The notes beneath the pieces were generated by a model, which saw only the letters and a list, made by a program, of their open reading frames with translations, was not told the DNA's origin and did not search any database. The position numbers and the translations under genes were made by a program. From a virus: a DNA stretch of 64,000 nt. Shown one piece after another: positions 32,254-42,293 of the stretch. Location: IMG/VR virus record IMGVR_UViG_3300043418_000120, positions 96,001-160,000 of that record; one strand, written 5' to 3'. Each line of letters starts with the position of its first letter. Within the stretch, counting starts at the first letter, position 1.

Positions 32254-32316
32254 TAGGATAGGTTCTGCAAATAACACTGCTAACTTTGGATGTCTAGCGA
32301 CAAAAACTATCCTGTT
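32254..32316 (+). ncRNA. CWGCAA-scaffold RNA copy 1
   Basis: AGGATAG-GTTCTGCAA...CTATCCT-GTT. Confidence 0.7.
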
Positions 32317-32322
32317 GATTTT

Positions 32323-32407
32323 GGAAGTGTAGGAAAATTGGTAACCCCAGGAGACTGTAAATCTTCCGCCTCTGGCATTGTTGGTTCAAGTCCAACCTCT
32401 TCCACCA
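32323..32407 (+). tRNA. tRNA-Tyr(GTA)
   Basis: Loop CTGTAAA, long variable arm. Confidence 0.88.
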
Positions 32408-32540
32408 ATTTCGCTGTCGAGAGGCAGTGATACGTTCCCAACATTAGGGTTGGGCGTGTTAAAGTTCGGGTCTTCACCAGAAGGTCTTTTCGGTTGCCAC
32501 GATAGAGCAACGGCTAAAGTTCGTAATGCCACAAATTCAT

Positions 32541-32616
32541 GCTTCGTTAGCTCAATTGGGAGAGCACTGCACTGTCACTGCAGAGGTAAGGGGATCGAAA
32601 CCCCTACGAGGCGCCA
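32541..32616 (+). tRNA. tRNA-Asp(GTC)
   Basis: Loop CTGTCAC. Confidence 0.9.
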
Positions 32617-32620
32617 ATTT

Positions 32621-32691
32621 TAGGATGAGTTCTGCAACAAAAATAGAACACCAAACTTTTAATTTGACATGTTCGTCAAAATCATCCTGTT
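32621..32691 (+). ncRNA. CWGCAA-scaffold RNA copy 2 (Lys-UUU anticodon loop)
   Basis: AGGATGA-GTTCTGCAA...CAAA-CTTTTAA-TTTG...TCATCCT-GTT. Confidence 0.7.
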
Positions 32692-32697
32692 GTATTT

Positions 32698-32772
32698 GGG
32701 GGCAGTAGAGGGCTACGGGTAACCCTTGCAAGGTTGCTGTCTAGATCGGTTCGATACCGACGGTCTCCACCA
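32698..32772 (+). tRNA. tRNA-Ala(TGC), atypical D arm
   Basis: Loop CTTGCAA; G3.U70; ACCA. Confidence 0.7.
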
Positions 32773-32859
32773 AGAGCAAATAGAAGTCTTGTTTTGATGC
32801 ATGGCTTCTCAATGTTTGTTAGTTTCAATGGGTGTTATAGAAACTACCACTAATTTTAT

Positions 32860-38778: not shown

Positions 38779-40256
38779 TAATCCTCAACGATTGTGCAAA
38801 CCCAGTCGACAAACGGCGAGTCAGCCGTTACATTGGACCGTATAAGATCGCTCACCATTTAAGGCAAGCGGGTTATACGGTCCAAGTCATTGACTTTGTT
38901 GCGTTCATGACAGAAGACGAGGTGCTTAAATACCTTCGCAAGTTTGTTAGCGAAGAAACCTTGATGGTTGCTGTCAGCACAACATTCCTTGCACAGCGTA
39001 TTCATAAACAGTCTGATGGGTTCTGGCGAAGAATGCCAGAGACTATCGTTCGATCTCTTAAGACTATTCGCGCAGAAGTTTCAAAACCAAAATTCGTTCT
39101 GGGTGGTTATTTGGCAGAACATATCGAGGGATTCGGTACGATAGATTATCGTATTACCAGTAATGCAGAAGCTACTGTTGTTGAACTTGTTGATTATTTG
39201 GCGGGTGTTAATGATCAACTACCAACCTATGTGTTGCAAGTTCCGATGTTTGATCCACGAAAGAAATTCGCCAAAGTAATCACAGCACCTAAACGCCTTC
39301 AGTACAACATTGAGACTGAGAATTTTAAATTCAACATACAAGATTGCATTGTTCCTGGGGAAACCTTGCCTCTTGAGGTGTCGCGAGGGTGTATTTTTAA
39401 GTGCAAATTCTGTCAACATGAGAATATTGGTCGTGGTAAGTTGGACTACTTACGTAGTATGGACTGTATTAAAGAAGAGTTGATTCACAATTACAACACT
39501 TGGGGCACTACACGATACTATATCCTTTGTGATACGTTTAATGACACTGAGTATAAGGTACGTCTATGGTATGATATGACCAAGACCTTACCTTTCCAGA
39601 TTCGTTGGAATTCATATATCCGTGTTGATTTGATTCATCGTTATCCAGAGACAGCTATTCTTTTACAGGACAGCGGTATGGTTGGCGCTTACCATGGTAT
39701 TGAATCATTACACTCAAAGGCTTCTTCTATTGTTGGAAAGGCTTGGTCTGGTAAACATGCTAAAGAGTATATCCCAAAATTATATCATGATATTTGGGGC
39801 GGTAAAGTTCAGCAACATTTGAATTTTATTTGTGGGTTACATCCAGAACCGAGAGAGAGTGTTATGGAAACTGCTGACTGGTTTATCCAGAACGATTTAC
39901 ACAGCATATTCTTTGAGACTCTTGGTTTAATGGAAAATGGTTACCGCCATCAAAGCGAATTCGAGAGAGACGCCACTAAGTATGGATACAGTTTCTATAC
40001 GCATGCGAATGGTGAAAGGCACTGGAAGACCGATTACTGGAATTTTGAAGAGGCAGCCGCGCACGCACTCCTTGCAAATTCACGTGTCAAACCATACACG
40101 AAGTTCTCTGGGTGGAGGACGCTGGCATGTGAGTCTGTAGGTATGTCCATGGAGGACGCTGGAGCCCTTGCCAAGGACTTCAAATTCAACCTTGAGAAGG
40201 AGCTGAACGTTCTTTTTGTTCGGAAATACATGAAACTTTTAGACGAAATCGTATAA
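38769..40256 (+). CDS. Radical SAM protein with B12-binding-like N-terminal domain
   Basis: EVSRGCIFKCKFC (CxxxCxxC); GIES; IAHHLRQAGYTVQVIDF. Confidence 0.85.
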   Translation: MDVVILNDCANPVDKRRVSRYIGPYKIAHHLRQAGYTVQVIDFVAFMTEDEVLKYLRKFVSEETLMVAVSTTFLAQRIHKQSDGFWRRMPETIVRSLKTIRAEVSKPKFVLGGYLAEHIEGFGTIDYRITSNAEATVVELVDYLAGVNDQLPTYVLQVPMFDPRKKFAKVITAPKRLQYNIETENFKFNIQDCIVPGETLPLEVSRGCIFKCKFCQHENIGRGKLDYLRSMDCIKEELIHNYNTWGTTRYYILCDTFNDTEYKVRLWYDMTKTLPFQIRWNSYIRVDLIHRYPETAILLQDSGMVGAYHGIESLHSKASSIVGKAWSGKHAKEYIPKLYHDIWGGKVQQHLNFICGLHPEPRESVMETADWFIQNDLHSIFFETLGLMENGYRHQSEFERDATKYGYSFYTHANGERHWKTDYWNFEEAAAHALLANSRVKPYTKFSGWRTLACESVGMSMEDAGALAKDFKFNLEKELNVLFVRKYMKLLDEIV

Positions 40257-40292
40257 ATAGTGCTTGACTTTATTGTTGAATTAAGGTATAAT
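40252..40292 (+). promoter_or_regulatory. Late promoter plus sigma70 promoter
   Basis: TATAAATA 40252-40259; TTGACT-N17-TATAAT 40264-40292. Confidence 0.8.
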
Positions 40293-40306
40293 TGATACTT
40301 GGAAAT

Positions 40307-40574
40307 GGGATGATTACAGCAGCTAACAACTACTGATCTAAGAGTAGCCCCTATACGGAGGAAACGTCGTAAGGCGTCAATTTTGGGGATAGGTAAGATA
40401 CGACTTTTGCATGCTCTTATGCCTCGCAACACCTAGTAGGAGTTGGAAAGTTAGTGCCCGAATGCACACTGAGAGTCCATACTTTGATTGGAATATGCCA
40501 GCGAACTGGATGAGTTTGAGTGGTTCAATTGCACTCTGGTTAGATAAACCGAAAATTACAGAACAAACATCCCG
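40307..40574 (+). ncRNA. CWGCAA-scaffold RNA copy 7 (large cargo)
   Basis: GGGATG-ATTACAGCAG...AAA-CATCCC-G; own promoter; no convincing ORF. Confidence 0.55.
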
Positions 40575-40593
40575 ATATTTTTTGTGAAAGTGC

Positions 40594-40622
40594 TTGACTT
40601 TATTCATGAAGTCAGGTATAAT
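40594..40622 (+). promoter_or_regulatory. sigma70-type promoter
   Basis: TTGACT-N17-TATAAT. Confidence 0.85.
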
Positions 40623-40641
40623 TGATAATGTTGAATGAATC

Positions 40642-40808
40642 TAGGATAGGTTCAGCAAACCAAAACCTCACTGGGCTTCATGCCTAGTATCGTATGTGGG
40701 GATTGGCCAGTTACACGAAAGTCGTAACAGCTCGCTTTAAATAGCAACGATCCTTACAGCTGAGTTTCGTGTTCTCAGTTGAAACAAAAAGAAGGAAACT
40801 ATCCTGTT
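40642..40808 (+). ncRNA. CWGCAA-scaffold RNA copy 8, leader of DUF2828 gene
   Basis: AGGATAG-GTTCAGCAA...AAA-CTATCCT-GTT. Confidence 0.75.
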
Positions 40809-40853
40809 GTTTTTAGGCTCAAATCGGAGCCTGTATTTTATGGAGTAATTTGA

Positions 40854-42293
40854 ATGTCTACATTTGTAAACGCAATCGCTAATCAAGAAGCACGTACTGA
40901 GAACGGTATGCTTGCTCGTAAGTCCACAGCTTCGGCTTGTGTTGACCTGTTTTTCAAGGCAGGCGCATCTCGTGGCAAGAACATCACTCGCGAATTCACA
41001 GCAGCTCTAGTAGAGAACGAAGACGTAGCAATGCGCTTGGCTCTATGGCTTCGTGACGCACGTGGTGGCGCTGGTGAACGTGAGTTGTTCCGTCAAATCA
41101 TGGCGCACTTGGAATCTTATCGCCCAGAGTTGGCAGCAAAGCTGTTGGCCAAGGTTCCAGAAGTGGGTCGTTGGGATGACTTGTTTGTCTTTAAGACAGA
41201 GCCTTTGAAGTCACAAGCCTACACAATGTTGGGCGACGCTCTTCGTGAGAAGAACGGTTTGGCTGCAAAGTGGACACCACGTAAGGGTGAGGTCGCTCGC
41301 GAAATCCGCGAGTTCTTCGGCATGTCTCCAAAGTTCTACCGTAAGTCCTTGGTCGAAATGACAAAGGTTGTTGAACAAGAAATGTGCGCAAAGAACTGGG
41401 ACGAAATCAACTTCTCCCATGTTCCATCCGTGGCGGCTGCTCGTTACAAGAAGGCATTCTTCCGTAACACTCCAGAGTACGCGAAGTACGTCGCAGAATT
41501 GGTGAAGGATCCAAAGGATCGCGCTATGAATGTGAAGGTAAACGCTGGCGCTGTGTTCCCATACGATGTGTTGAAGGGCTTGATCGGTTCTTACTCTCGT
41601 TTGAACTACAACGCTACTCAAGTAAACCTTGTGCAAGCACAATGGGATGCTATGGAAAACTTCGTTGGTGACGCAAACGTGTTGCCACTGGTTGACGTAT
41701 CTGGTTCGATGATGTGTAAGGCAGGTGGTGATGGCTCCCAATCAGCAATATCTTGCCTAGACGTAGCGGTTTCGCTGGGTCTATACTTGGCCGACAAGAA
41801 CAAGGGTAAGTTCAAGGATACGTTCCTAACTTTCTCTGGTAACCCAGAGCTCTTGAACTTGAAGGGTAACATCGTTGACAAGGTCAAGCAAATGTCTTCT
41901 TCTAACTGGGGAATGAACACTGACTTGGTGAAGGCAATGGACAAGATCCTGAGTACAGCTAAGAATGGTGGTGTTCCTCAAGAAGAAATGCCAGAAATGT
42001 TGCTGATCCTTTCGGACATGCAATTCGATCAATGTGCTCGTTTCGACGACTCTGCGATGAAGATGATGGCGCGTAAGTTTGAAGACGCAGGATACGAACT
42101 GCCAAAGATCGTGTTCTGGAATCTTAACGCAAAGGACAACGTTCCTGTTAAGTACGACACACGTGGTGTGGCTTTGGTATCTGGGTTCAGCCCAGCTATC
42201 ATGGTGGCGGTTCTAGGTGGCGACACTGATAACTTTACACCAGAAGCAATCATGCTGAAGGCATTGATGAACCCACGTTACGATCTAGTGTAA
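40854..42293 (+). CDS. DUF2828-type helical domain + vWA protein (Ro60/TROVE-like architecture)
   Basis: TENG, RDARGGAGER, GRWDDL, AAKW; MIDAS DVSGS, NTD, SDMQFD, FWNL, VSGFS. Confidence 0.8.
   Translation: MSTFVNAIANQEARTENGMLARKSTASACVDLFFKAGASRGKNITREFTAALVENEDVAMRLALWLRDARGGAGERELFRQIMAHLESYRPELAAKLLAKVPEVGRWDDLFVFKTEPLKSQAYTMLGDALREKNGLAAKWTPRKGEVAREIREFFGMSPKFYRKSLVEMTKVVEQEMCAKNWDEINFSHVPSVAAARYKKAFFRNTPEYAKYVAELVKDPKDRAMNVKVNAGAVFPYDVLKGLIGSYSRLNYNATQVNLVQAQWDAMENFVGDANVLPLVDVSGSMMCKAGGDGSQSAISCLDVAVSLGLYLADKNKGKFKDTFLTFSGNPELLNLKGNIVDKVKQMSSSNWGMNTDLVKAMDKILSTAKNGGVPQEEMPEMLLILSDMQFDQCARFDDSAMKMMARKFEDAGYELPKIVFWNLNAKDNVPVKYDTRGVALVSGFSPAIMVAVLGGDTDNFTPEAIMLKALMNPRYDLV

What the first reader, a model, noticed from the sequence alone, without database searches (positions are those of the whole stretch)
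32254..42293. Candidate new Ro/Y-like RNP system: eight covarying 'CWGCAA' scaffold RNAs plus a DUF2828 (TROVE-like+vWA) protein
Seen: eight elements (32254, 32621, 33431, 34522, 35114, 37266, 40307, 40642) share a terminal stem with fully compensatory changes: AGGATAG/CTATCCT (twice), AGGATGA/TCATCCT, AGGTTCA/TGAACCT, AGGATCC/GGATCCT, AGGTTAG/CTAACCT, AGGATAC/GTATCCT, GGGATG/CATCCC. The 5' strand is followed by a conserved (T)TCWGCAA and an A-rich linker, and the 3' strand by GTT (copy 7 is the most divergent). Cargo ranges from ~30 to ~250 nt and is often tRNA-derived. Six copies lie in the tRNA array; two sit behind their own sigma70 promoters directly upstream of the 479-aa helical+vWA (DVSGS MIDAS) gene. 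Established: bacterial Ro60/Rsr (TROVE+vWA) binds Y RNAs made of a conserved terminal stem plus a variable effector domain, and YrlA-type Y RNAs carry permuted tRNA-like domains and are encoded near rsr. Inference: this protein is a Ro60 analogue and these RNAs are its Y-like partners, using a different recognition motif (no GGUCCGA-type bulged helix seen).
Basis: partly seen in the sequence, partly recalled or inferred. Interest (0 to 1): 0.95.

Follow-up and report, generated by a model that had tools for sequence, protein, structure and literature searches.

The report
Phage Ro60-like protein with partner RNAs
A large tRNA-rich phage encodes eight small RNAs that share one conserved "handle" but carry different tRNA-like parts. 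They lie beside a gene for a ring protein predicted to fold like the RNA-surveillance protein Ro60, and the same undescribed pairing recurs in very distant phages and bacteria and resembles the unexplained Class I RNAs of Dictyostelium.

Summary
Seven elements match AGGWTNNNTYCWGCAA exactly, all on the + strand (0.7 expected by chance). Each is closed by the exact complement of its stem followed by GTT. The eighth (40307) is a divergent but conserved member.

The 479-aa protein is Pfam DUF2828+DUF7788. Its model matches Ro60 over the whole length (VIA-align Z 12-16.5) but has no sequence match to TROVE.

The handle RNAs lie next to DUF2828 genes on the gene strand in:
- 74 of 80 related IMG/VR loci;
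- Felixounavirus, mycobacteriophage, Listeria, Campylobacter and cyanophage records;
- 40 of 80 loci in bacterial assemblies.

Of 10 long contigs picked by the RNA motif alone, 7 encode the protein. A T5-like tRNA array without the gene and 11 canonical TROVE loci have no handles.

Cargos are anticodon-loop mimics, tRNA "top halves" or other folds. No Rfam family reaches threshold, and I found no paper describing the RNAs.

My reading is a second, undescribed Ro/Y-RNA-type particle. Binding is inferred, not shown.

The handle has the design of Dictyostelium Class I RNAs, and all dictyostelids listed encode this protein (D. discoideum DDB_G0281913). The published Class I pull-down lists a different gene id.

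This scan has reported the same pairing before on at least 15 other windows.

The parts
31508..31737 (+). Three tandem consensus sigma-70 promoters (31508-31536, 31607-31635, 31709-31737) at the head of the tRNA/small-RNA array
   Evidence: Matches of 12/12, 11/12 and 12/12 to the consensus. The array starts at tRNA-Glu 31776.
32254..32317 (+). Handle RNA copy 1. Stem AGGATAG/CTATCCT, motif GTTCTGCAA, 36-nt cargo with small hairpins. It lies between tRNA-Ile and tRNA-Tyr.
   Evidence: Model R1 scores 59.5 bits, but this copy was in the training set.
32621..32692 (+). Handle RNA copy 2. Stem AGGATGA/TCATCCT, motif GTTCTGCAA, 44-nt cargo. It follows tRNA-Asp.
   Evidence: Orthologues are found in L014, L017, L025 and L031.
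33431..33552 (+). Handle RNA copy 3. Stem AGGTTCA/TGAACCT, motif TTTCAGCAA. The cargo is an anticodon-like hairpin (loop CUGUAAA, GUA), then a T-arm, a closed 7-bp acceptor hairpin and a D-arm, which amounts to a permuted whole tRNA body.
   Evidence: Model R1 gives E 3e-7, and this copy was not in the training set.
34522..34581 (+). Handle RNA copy 4. Stem AGGATCC/GGATCCT, motif GTCCAGCAA. The cargo is a 5-bp stem with a 7-nt loop CUUGUAA, an anticodon stem-loop mimic (UGU).
   Evidence: Rfam Dicty_Class_I_RNA aligns over its full length at 23.5 bits, below the gathering score of 41.5.
35114..35220 (+). Handle RNA copy 5. Stem AGGTTAG/CTAACCT, motif GTTCTGCAA. The cargo is a T-arm, a 7-bp acceptor hairpin and a D-like hairpin, a YrlA-like tRNA top half.
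   Evidence: Model R1 gives E 2e-6, and this copy was not in the training set.
37266..37491 (+). Handle RNA copy 6. Stem AGGATAC/GTATCCT, motif ATTCAGCAA. The cargo is a T-arm, a 13-bp acceptor-like stem enclosing a structured insert of about 110 nt, and a D-arm.
40264..40292 (+). Sigma-70 promoter driving copy 7
   Evidence: TTGACT, 17-nt spacer, TATAAT; 11/12 match.
40307..40577 (+). Handle RNA copy 7, the divergent member. Stem GGGATG/CATCCC, motif ATTACAGCAG, structured cargo of about 245 nt.
   Evidence: Orthologues with a 7-bp stem and one compensatory change are aligned in A3.
40594..40622 (+). Sigma-70 promoter driving copy 8
   Evidence: TTGACT, 17-nt spacer, TATAAT; 11/12 match.
40642..40809 (+). 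Handle RNA copy 8. Stem AGGATAG/CTATCCT, motif GTTCAGCAA, 140-nt multi-hairpin cargo.
   Evidence: In relatives a closed element ends within 600 nt upstream of the gene in 24 of 33 loci that have the full upstream flank.
40814..40840 (+). Terminator-like hairpin plus T-run between copy 8 and the gene. It may act as an attenuator.
40854..42293 (+). Gene for the 479-aa Ro60-like protein: a helical ring (DUF2828) plus a vWA domain with MIDAS (DUF7788)
   Evidence: Pfam E 3.9e-22 and 5.1e-47. PHROG 850 'RNA-binding protein'. AF2 pLDDT 76. Ro60 structures are the top 13 Foldseek hits. VIA-align Z 16.5-12.4 over 376-409 residues. MIDAS residues D281, S283, S285, T356 and D388 are invariant.

Best explanation
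The eight elements are small non-coding RNAs of one family. Each has a constant 'handle' and a variable cargo.

The handle consists of:
- a 7-bp terminal stem that begins A-U, G-C, G-C;
- an unpaired UYCWGCAA plus an A-rich tract on the 5' side;
- an A-rich tract on the 3' side;
- a 3' GUU tail.

The cargo is an anticodon stem-loop mimic, a permuted tRNA 'top half', or another fold.

Six copies are released from the tRNA operon by the cuts that mature the flanking tRNAs. Two are made from their own promoters directly in front of the gene for a Ro60-shaped ring protein (DUF2828+DUF7788).

I infer that the handle is this protein's binding site, as the conserved stem of Y RNAs is for Ro60. The cargos would then bring tRNA-recognising factors, or damaged tRNAs, to the ring. 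These factors could be host anticodon nucleases, tRNA-modifying or repair enzymes, or exonucleases such as PNPase. This would give the phage an RNA surveillance, repair or counter-defence particle during infection.

Shown here: the RNA family, its covariation, the Ro60-like fold, and the two-way genomic linkage. Inferred: binding, discrete transcripts, and function.
For: The motif is non-random and strand-specific.

The stem is closed far more often than chance allows. In 80 related loci, 135 of 151 forward 5' motifs are closed by the exact 6-nt complement, where chance gives about 10%. The reverse strand has 6 motifs and 0 closures. Pair 3-70, which I did not use to select sequences, covaries AU/GC/UA with no mispairs.

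Protein to RNA:
- Strict handles number 244 on the gene strand and 19 on the opposite strand in IMG/VR loci, and 88 against 14 in 80 loci from bacterial assemblies.
- They lie within 400 nt of the gene in Mycobacterium phage Itos, cyanophage BUCT-ZZ01, Felixounavirus momo, Listeria phage List-36 and Campylobacter phage F370.
- 33 elements fall in the first 500 nt upstream of the gene, against 1-6 in every other 500-nt bin.

RNA to protein: of 10 long contigs chosen by the RNA motif alone, 7 encode DUF7788. The 3 without it are fragments estimated 30-71% complete. For comparison, 711 of 50,697 phage records have the gene.

Controls:
- A T5-like phage with about 30 tRNAs has no DUF7788 and no handles.
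- Eleven canonical TROVE loci have no handles in 37 kb.
- Five genomes that have DUF2828, three of them with handles beside the gene, have no TROVE protein.

Fold: Ro60 and TROVE structures are the top 13 Foldseek hits. VIA-align gives Z 16.5 to Thermus phage phiLo Ro60, 12.4-14.3 to Xenopus and human Ro60, and 12.7 to Deinococcus Rsr. The next matches are vWA-only at Z 9.1 or less.

Precedent: the phiLo Ro60 binds two Y-like RNAs encoded upstream of its gene and recruits PNPase (PMC12135203). YrlA RNAs lie near rsr on the same strand and mimic tRNA (PMC4201824).

Cargo: 33 of 64 short cargos hold a 5-bp stem with a 7-nt loop that has U at loop position 2 and a purine at position 6. Shuffled cargos give 1.06 on average, with a maximum of 5.
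Against: There is no experimental evidence here for transcripts, processing or binding.

The DUF2828 profile finds no Ro60 sequence in the PDB, and Pfam TROVE does not match. Homology to Ro60 therefore rests on the predicted fold alone (pLDDT 76).

The handle lacks the features described for Ro60 binding sites, namely the bulged GGUCCGA-type helix and the CGAA motif.

Aeromonas phage Aeh1 has the gene but no adjacent handle. Half of the bacterial loci have no handle under my strict rule, although many of these are cut by contig ends.

Most loci come from tRNA-rich phages. Part of the linkage could therefore reflect a shared 'tRNA region' rather than a physical partnership.
Confidence: 0.7

Rival explanations
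1. The handle is a self-contained stability or processing module for free-standing tRNA-mimic decoys. Such decoys could, for example, soak up host anticodon nucleases or tRNA-modifying enzymes. They would act without the DUF2828 protein, and the gene linkage would only reflect that both belong to the phage's tRNA/RNA-repair region.
For: Six of eight copies sit inside the tRNA array, 3-8 kb from the gene, flanked by tRNAs. The cargos look like anticodon loops or tRNA top halves. The DUF2828 gene adjoins tRNA genes or arrays in Felixounavirus, Listeria and Campylobacter phages. Aeh1 has the gene without adjacent handles.
Against: Handles hug the gene, within 400 nt and on the same strand, where no tRNA was annotated within 4 kb of the gene (mycobacteriophage Itos). 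They also lie upstream of it in Akkermansia and Enterococcus assemblies. A tRNA-rich T5-like phage without the gene has none. The motif alone predicts the gene in 7 of 10 contigs.
Confidence: 0.15
2. The elements are cis-acting leader structures that regulate expression of the DUF2828 gene by attenuation or autoregulation. They would not be trans-acting RNAs.
For: Copies 7 and 8 lie between promoters and the gene, and a terminator-like hairpin at 40814-40840 separates copy 8 from the start codon. In 24 of 33 relatives an element ends within 600 nt upstream of the gene.
Against: Six copies lie in the tRNA array, kilobases away. In Felixounavirus and mycobacteriophage Itos the copies lie downstream of the gene. 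The variable tRNA-like cargos have no obvious role in a leader. Autoregulation could still exist alongside the main model.
Confidence: 0.07
3. The elements are DNA-level repeats: short inverted repeats of a mobile element, a recombination site or a protein-binding site. They would not be RNAs.
For: Each element is bounded by a 7-bp inverted repeat.
Against: The strand bias is absolute: 7 against 0 in the genome, and 151 against 6 in relatives with 0 closures on the reverse strand. The stem sequences change while pairing is kept. The elements sit between tRNAs in a transcribed operon and directly behind promoters. The cargos fold into tRNA-type arms.
Confidence: 0.02

Closest known systems
Bacterial and phage Ro60 (Rsr/TROVE2) with Y RNAs, especially YrlA/YrlB (Rfam RF02553; Chen et al. 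2014, PMC4201824) and Thermus phage phiLo Ro60 with Yrl1/Yrl2 (PMC12135203)
   Same: The protein is a ring of helical repeats plus a vWA/MIDAS domain. The small RNAs have paired 5' and 3' ends that form a conserved module, and the rest is variable. The RNAs are encoded beside the protein gene on the same strand. Some cargos have a T-arm, a closed acceptor hairpin and a D-arm in the YrlA order. The YrlA model gives full-length sub-threshold hits (41.6 and 35.1 bits) on handle RNAs of a Verrucomicrobiales assembly.
   Different: The protein belongs to Pfam DUF2828+DUF7788, not TROVE, and has no detectable sequence match to Ro60. The conserved RNA module is a 7-bp stem plus unpaired UYCWGCAA, not the bulged Ro-binding helix or CGAA motif. 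No window element reaches the YrlA score. Many cargos are bare anticodon stem-loop mimics. There are up to eight copies per genome, mostly inside a tRNA operon. Canonical TROVE loci lack the handle.
Dictyostelium Class I RNAs (Rfam RF01414; Kjellin et al. 2021, PMC7919456)
   Same: Both have a short terminal stem with compensatory changes and a conserved ...ACAGCAA motif directly after the 5' strand. The ends are conserved (A/G-G at the start, C-U-G-U at the end). The interior is variable and A/U-rich with an A-run before the 3' strand, and the short forms are about 55-65 nt long. The RF01414 model gave its only hits in the phage, bacterial-assembly and archaeal-MAG DNA searched exactly on short handle RNAs, full length and on the right strand: 23.5, 26.7, 23.6 and 32.4 bits. 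All dictyostelids listed encode a DUF2828+DUF7788 protein. The D. discoideum one, DDB_G0281913, is 32% identical to the phage protein over residues 25-479, E 1e-67.
   Different: All scores are below Rfam's gathering score of 41.5. Class I RNAs are transcribed from their own DUSE promoters in a eukaryote and were reported as unique to Dictyostelia. Their published pull-down partners are Rnp1A/CIBP, GuaB, NdkC and DDB_G0281243, not DDB_G0281913. The phage family also has long tRNA-like cargos.
Phage T4 species 1 and 2 RNAs and other stable small RNAs encoded in phage tRNA clusters (from my own knowledge, not checked here)
   Same: They are small stable RNAs co-transcribed with, and processed out of, a phage tRNA operon, and their function is unknown.
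   Different: I know of no shared handle motif or Ro-like partner for them. I made no sequence comparison.

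Membership tests
Ro60 / TROVE proteins | Ring of HEAT-like helical repeats followed by a vWA domain with a MIDAS motif | tested here: met
   The AF2 model has pLDDT 76. Ro60 structures are the top 13 Foldseek hits. VIA-align gives Z 16.5-12.4 over 376-409 aligned residues spanning model residues 7-479, and the next matches are vWA-only at Z 9.1 or less. DxSxS...T...D is invariant.
Ro60 / TROVE proteins | Sequence match to the TROVE domain (Pfam PF05731) or to known Ro60 sequences | tested here: not met
   Pfam gives only DUF2828 and DUF7788. Neither phmmer nor a 23-sequence profile finds any Ro60 among PDB sequences.
Ro60 / TROVE proteins | Binds Y RNA on the outer surface of the ring and RNA 3' ends in the central cavity | not testable with these tools
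   This needs EMSA, RIP or a structure.
Y RNA, YrlA type (Rfam RF02553) | Reaches the family's gathering score of 69 bits | tested here: not met
   No window element matches. The model hits only tRNA-tRNA junctions, at 30.8 bits or less. The best score on a related handle RNA elsewhere is 41.6 bits.
Y RNA, YrlA type (Rfam RF02553) | 5' and 3' ends pair into a stem that carries the protein-binding module; encoded near the Ro gene on the same strand | tested here: met
Y RNA, YrlA type (Rfam RF02553) | tRNA-like domain with a T-arm, a closed acceptor-like stem and a D-arm | tested here: met
   Copies 3, 5 and 6 have it. The other copies do not.
Y RNA, YrlA type (Rfam RF02553) | Conserved Ro-binding helix or GNCGAA(N)G / CGAA motif | tested here: not met
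   The handle alignment A2 shows UYCWGCAA and A-rich tracts instead. The YrlA consensus has a different internal loop.
Dictyostelium Class I RNA (Rfam RF01414) | Reaches the family's gathering score of 41.5 bits | tested here: not met
   The window scores 23.5 bits at 34524-34578. The best score elsewhere is 32.4 bits.
Dictyostelium Class I RNA (Rfam RF01414) | Short covarying terminal stem, conserved motif directly after the 5' strand, conserved AAG start and CUGU end, 42-65 nt long | tested here: inconclusive
   The stem, the CAGCAA core, the (U)AGG start and the CCUGUU end all match. Only about 6-7 of the 11 motif positions agree, and five of the eight copies are far longer than 65 nt.
Dictyostelium Class I RNA (Rfam RF01414) | A DUF2828 protein is among the proteins pulled down with a Class I RNA | tested here: not met
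   The pull-down list, as given in the Kjellin preprint, is GuaB, NdkC, CIBP/Rnp1A and DDB_G0281243. The D. discoideum DUF2828 protein is DDB_G0281913. The original paper (Avesson 2011) is not held.

The most novel reading that the evidence does not exclude
The CAGCAA-handle RNAs of phages, bacteria and giant viruses and the Class I RNAs of Dictyostelium would be one ancient RNA family. They would be the cognate partners of the DUF2828/DUF7788 branch of Ro60-like proteins. The unexplained Class I RNAs, thought unique to social amoebae, would then be Y-RNA equivalents whose missing partner is DDB_G0281913. A second Ro/Y-type ribonucleoprotein system would span viruses, prokaryotes and eukaryotes.
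Probability: 0.3. Interest if true: 0.95.

Novelty: new variant of a known kind. Interest (0 to 1): 0.85.

Why it matters
Ro60 and Y RNAs are a classic but still poorly understood RNA-surveillance system.

DUF2828 proteins are common. They occur in 711 of about 50,700 phage records and form about 6,900 clusters at 50% identity. They are found in plants, fungi, oomycetes and amoebae. They are annotated only as 'RNA-binding' or 'Ro-like', with no known RNA partner.

A defined, easily recognised partner RNA family would make the whole protein family testable. It would give a function to unexplained RNAs in the tRNA clusters of well-studied phages such as Felix O1-type and Listeria P100-type phages and cluster-E-size mycobacteriophages. 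It would also point to a way phages handle tRNA damage or tRNA-directed host defence.

If the link to Dictyostelium Class I RNAs is real, it names a candidate partner for an abundant RNA class whose role has been unexplained since 2004.

Tried and rejected
1. Rfam, at gathering thresholds and permissive E-values. Nothing reaches threshold on the elements. The YrlA hits in the window are tRNA-tRNA junctions.

2. Megablast of the region against phage records finds only tRNA fragments.

3. A loose handle finder (6-bp stem within 400 nt) is too noisy: 25 forward against 30 reverse hits in the window. I replaced it with stricter rules. One strict hit at 27579-27880 is a false positive inside ORF 27464-27739.

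4. Is the pull-down protein DDB_G0281243 the Dictyostelium DUF2828 protein? Several routes gave nothing:
- Avesson 2011 is not held.
- Nothing relevant is in Kjellin's supplements.
- No other paper mentions the gene.
- Picking AT-rich representatives was fruitless.
- A search with an amoebozoan homologue finally showed that the D. discoideum family member is DDB_G0281913, a different gene. That test is therefore negative.

5. The papers that mention DDB_G0281913 say only two things. It was among starvation-induced genes chosen for knock-out, and nulls of its group aggregate normally. It also appears in a proteomics table.

6. Literature searches for DUF2828, ACAGCAA and 'Ro-like' returned only genome announcements and unrelated papers.

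7. Model R1, built from short copies, misses the long-cargo copies 6-8 and most distant lineages. I used regular-expression and stem searches for those instead.

Full report
**What the window is.** The window is bases 96,001-160,000 of a 173,880-bp IMG/VR virus record rated 100% complete. It holds 29 tRNA genes and a permuted tmRNA. No close cultivated relative exists: megablast of the region finds only tRNA fragments.

**Observation.** The pattern AGGWTNNNTYCWGCAA occurs 7 times with no mismatch, all on the + strand. Shuffles give 0.71 matches on average. The whole genome has the same 7 forward matches and none on the reverse strand.
- Each match is closed 55-221 nt downstream by the exact complement of its 7-nt stem, followed by GTT(G/T).
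- The minimum-free-energy fold of every complete element has this stem closing the whole RNA.
- The eighth element (40307-40573) has a 6-bp stem GGGATG/CATCCC and TACAGCAG. Orthologues at the same position in relatives have GGGATGA/TCATCCC, and one has AGGATGA/TCATCCT. It is a true but divergent member.
- Six copies start 5-10 nt after a tRNA 3' end, and most are followed within about 10 nt by the next tRNA. The enzymes that mature the tRNAs would therefore release them. This step is inference.
- Copies 7 and 8 each follow an 11/12-match sigma-70 promoter. A terminator-like hairpin separates copy 8 from the start codon at 40854.

**The RNA family is real and conserved.** A search with the protein found 80 related IMG/VR loci, 57-88% identical.
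- In these loci the 5' motif occurs 151 times on the gene strand. In 135 of them the exact 6-nt complement follows within 450 nt, where chance gives about 10%. The other strand has 6 motifs and no closure.
- An alignment of 43 short copies (A2) shows invariant GG..U...U.C.GCA on the 5' side, an A-run, and CC.GU on the 3' side.
- Stem pairs 8 and 9 take three or four different Watson-Crick pairs. That follows from how I selected the sequences.
- The outermost pair was not used for selection. It covaries AU/GC/UA with no mispair.
- A covariance model built from A2 finds window copies 3 and 5, which were not in the training set, at E 3e-7 and 2e-6. It also finds elements in a cyanophage and a Listeria phage, and gives no minus-strand hits.

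**The protein.** The gene at 40854-42293 encodes a protein matching Pfam DUF2828 (N-terminal) and DUF7788 (C-terminal) and PHROG 850 'RNA-binding protein'.
- tblastn finds it in 711 phage records, including Felixounavirus, Listeria, Staphylococcus, Campylobacter, Enterococcus, Vibrio and Aeromonas phages. It also occurs in mycobacteriophages, where some records call it 'Ro-like RNA binding protein'.
- An AlphaFold2 model from a 23-sequence alignment has pLDDT 76 and pTM 0.68.
- The top 13 Foldseek hits in the PDB are all Ro60/TROVE structures, aligned over 505-571 columns.
- VIA-align gives Z 16.5 (397 residues, rmsd 4.7) to Thermus phage phiLo Ro60, 12.4-14.3 to Xenopus and human Ro60, and 12.7 to Deinococcus Rsr. 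It then drops to vWA-only matches at Z 9.1 or less.
- The MIDAS residues are invariant.
- Neither the protein nor its family profile finds Ro60 by sequence. The relation is therefore at the level of fold.

**Linkage of RNA and protein beyond this clade.** Handles with the same design lie within 400 nt of the gene, on its strand, in five distant phages. The design is a stem, then 2-4 nt, then (U/A)CAGCAA, then cargo, an A-run, the 3' strand and a G.

| Phage | Copies | Position |
|---|---|---|
| Mycobacterium phage Itos | 3 | downstream of the gene |
| Cyanophage BUCT-ZZ01 | 2 | upstream |
| Felixounavirus momo | 4 | downstream, in the tRNA array |
| Listeria phage List-36 | 3 | upstream; RtcB, an RNA ligase and an HD phosphohydrolase are nearby |
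| Campylobacter phage F370 | 2 | upstream |

Aeromonas phage Aeh1 has none adjacent.

- In 80 loci from bacterial and archaeal assemblies, strict handles number 88 on the gene strand and 14 on the opposite strand, in 40 loci. Examples are 3-5 copies upstream of the gene in Akkermansia and 2 in Enterococcus. Meiothermus, Chloroflexota and a Woesearchaeota MAG also have them.
- In the reverse direction, I picked 10 long IMG/VR contigs only because they hold the RNA motif. Seven encode DUF7788, including the one complete genome. The three without it are fragments estimated 30-71% complete.

**Controls.**
- A complete T5-like phage with about 30 tRNAs has neither the gene nor any handle in its 24-kb tRNA region.
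- Eleven canonical TROVE loci, from genomes of the same phylum as the Meiothermus assembly, have no handle in 37 kb.
- Five genomes that have DUF2828, three of them with handles beside the gene, have no TROVE protein.
- The handle therefore goes with the DUF2828 branch, not with tRNA arrays as such and not with canonical Ro60.

**Cargo.**
- Copy 4 carries a 5-bp stem with the loop CUUGUAA.
- Copy 3 carries an anticodon-like hairpin (GUA), then a T-arm, a closed 7-bp acceptor hairpin and a D-arm. This is a permuted tRNA body.
- Copies 5 and 6 carry the tRNA top half only, as YrlA does.
- Copies 1, 2, 7 and 8 carry other conserved folds.
- Across the clade, 33 of 64 distinct short cargos contain a 5-bp stem with a 7-nt loop that has U at position 2 and a purine at position 6. 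Shuffled cargos give 1.06 on average, with a maximum of 5. The implied anticodons are UGU, GGA, GUU, UUU, UCU, UUG, GAA, GCA and UGG.

**Most likely mechanism.** By analogy with Ro60 and Y RNA, the constant handle would be the docking site for the Ro60-like ring. The interchangeable tRNA-like cargos would be adaptor or decoy modules. They could bring tRNA-recognising proteins or damaged tRNAs to the ring, or keep such proteins away from the phage's own tRNAs.
- Precedents exist. Thermus phage phiLo Ro60 binds two Y-like RNAs encoded upstream of its gene and assembles with host PNPase (PMC12135203). Bacterial YrlA RNAs mimic tRNA and lie beside rsr (PMC4201824).
- The company of RtcB and RNA ligases in the Listeria phage, and of two phosphatase-type genes inside this window's tRNA array, fits a role in tRNA repair or counter-defence. 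That role is speculative.
- Binding, transcript ends and function are all inferred.

**Comparison with known families.** The system works like Ro60/Y RNA but fails the membership tests at sequence level. There is no TROVE match, no YrlA score on any window element, and a different conserved RNA module.

The handle has the design of Dictyostelium Class I RNAs:
- Both have a short covarying stem, a ...ACAGCAA motif right after the 5' strand, conserved A/G-G and CUGU ends, and a variable interior (PMC7919456; alignment).
- In all the phage, bacterial-assembly and archaeal-MAG DNA I scanned, the Rfam Class I model hit only short handle RNAs, four times. Each hit was full length and on the correct strand, at 23.5-32.4 bits, below the gathering score of 41.5.
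- Every dictyostelid named in a homologue search encodes a DUF2828+DUF7788 protein of about 500 aa. The D. discoideum protein DDB_G0281913 is 32% identical to the phage protein over nearly its whole length, E 1e-67.

Three points count against a direct link:
- The published DdR-21 pull-down lists GuaB, NdkC, Rnp1A/CIBP and DDB_G0281243, not DDB_G0281913.
- DUF2828 proteins also occur in Physarum, where Class I RNAs were not found, and in oomycetes.
- Null mutants of the gene group that includes DDB_G0281913 aggregate normally.

I put common descent or a shared partner at about 0.3.

**Novelty and earlier notes.** I found no paper or Rfam family that describes these RNAs. The 'Ro-like' label exists only as a genome annotation.

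This scan has reported the same protein-RNA pairing on at least 15 other windows, and several notes mention the Class I resemblance. One of those notes was later checked. What had been seen stood, while its bold reading was given low odds.

The items I found in none of the notes I read:
- the reverse co-occurrence test;
- the TROVE-locus and T5-like controls;
- the anticodon-loop statistic for this clade;
- the identification of DDB_G0281913 as the Dictyostelium family member;
- the negative result for the pull-down protein.

Noticed in passing
window 27038-27443: A two-piece (permuted) tmRNA gene in a phage: Rfam tmRNA_permuted 146 bits, ARAGORN tag ANESSFLMAA. The related cyanophage BUCT-ZZ01 has one too (L089 3737-4137).
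   Followed up: no
window 31851-32087, 32408-32540, 32695-32859, 32935-33174, 33633-33872, 35558-35717: Gaps in the tRNA array hold further structured or tRNA-like sequences that ARAGORN does not call. One is a tRNA-Sec-like match at 32940-33027 (33.2 bits, below threshold). Several stretches end in CCA. None has the CAGCAA handle.
   Followed up: partly
window 34754-35029, 35859-36359, 36307-36936: Protein genes are embedded in the tRNA array: a Cpn10-like ORF, a dual-specificity/PTP-type phosphatase with the HCxxGxxRS motif, and a calcineurin-like metallophosphoesterase. The two phosphatases could be RNA-end-healing enzymes, which is speculation.
   Followed up: no
window 38105-38596, 38769-40256, 42788-43585: The neighbours of the Ro-like gene are an RNase H-like protein (PF04308, PHROG 11311), a 495-aa radical SAM protein and a PhyH-type dioxygenase. 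None of them showed up next to DUF2828 genes in the other lineages I examined.
   Followed up: partly
window 31508-31737, 40254-40292, 40584-40622: The same promoter cassette (AAATAGTGCTTGAC..., then 17 nt, then TATAAT) is reused five times. Three copies stand in tandem before the tRNA array, and one stands before each of copies 7 and 8.
   Followed up: partly
L125:1085-1211 (Halobacillus rhizosphaerae contig): A skipping-rope RNA (Rfam RF02924, 63.7 bits, above threshold) sits among tRNAs and CAGCAA-handle RNAs upstream of a DUF2828 gene. This is a possible clue to the function of that orphan motif.
   Followed up: no
L089:9580-9830 (Synechococcus phage BUCT-ZZ01, just downstream of its DUF2828 gene): Two tRNA-like genes in normal arm order carry a repeated insert of about 40 nt in the anticodon region. 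The insert contains an anticodon-like hairpin and the motif UUCUGCAA. Rfam calls one of them a 114-nt tRNA at 50.7 bits.
   Followed up: no
L296, L298, L300, L301 (TROVE loci of the Deinococcota sample): Canonical TROVE genes there are preceded by tRNA genes and by 120-134-nt 'tRNA' matches. These may be tRNA-like Y RNAs. None has a CAGCAA handle.
   Followed up: partly
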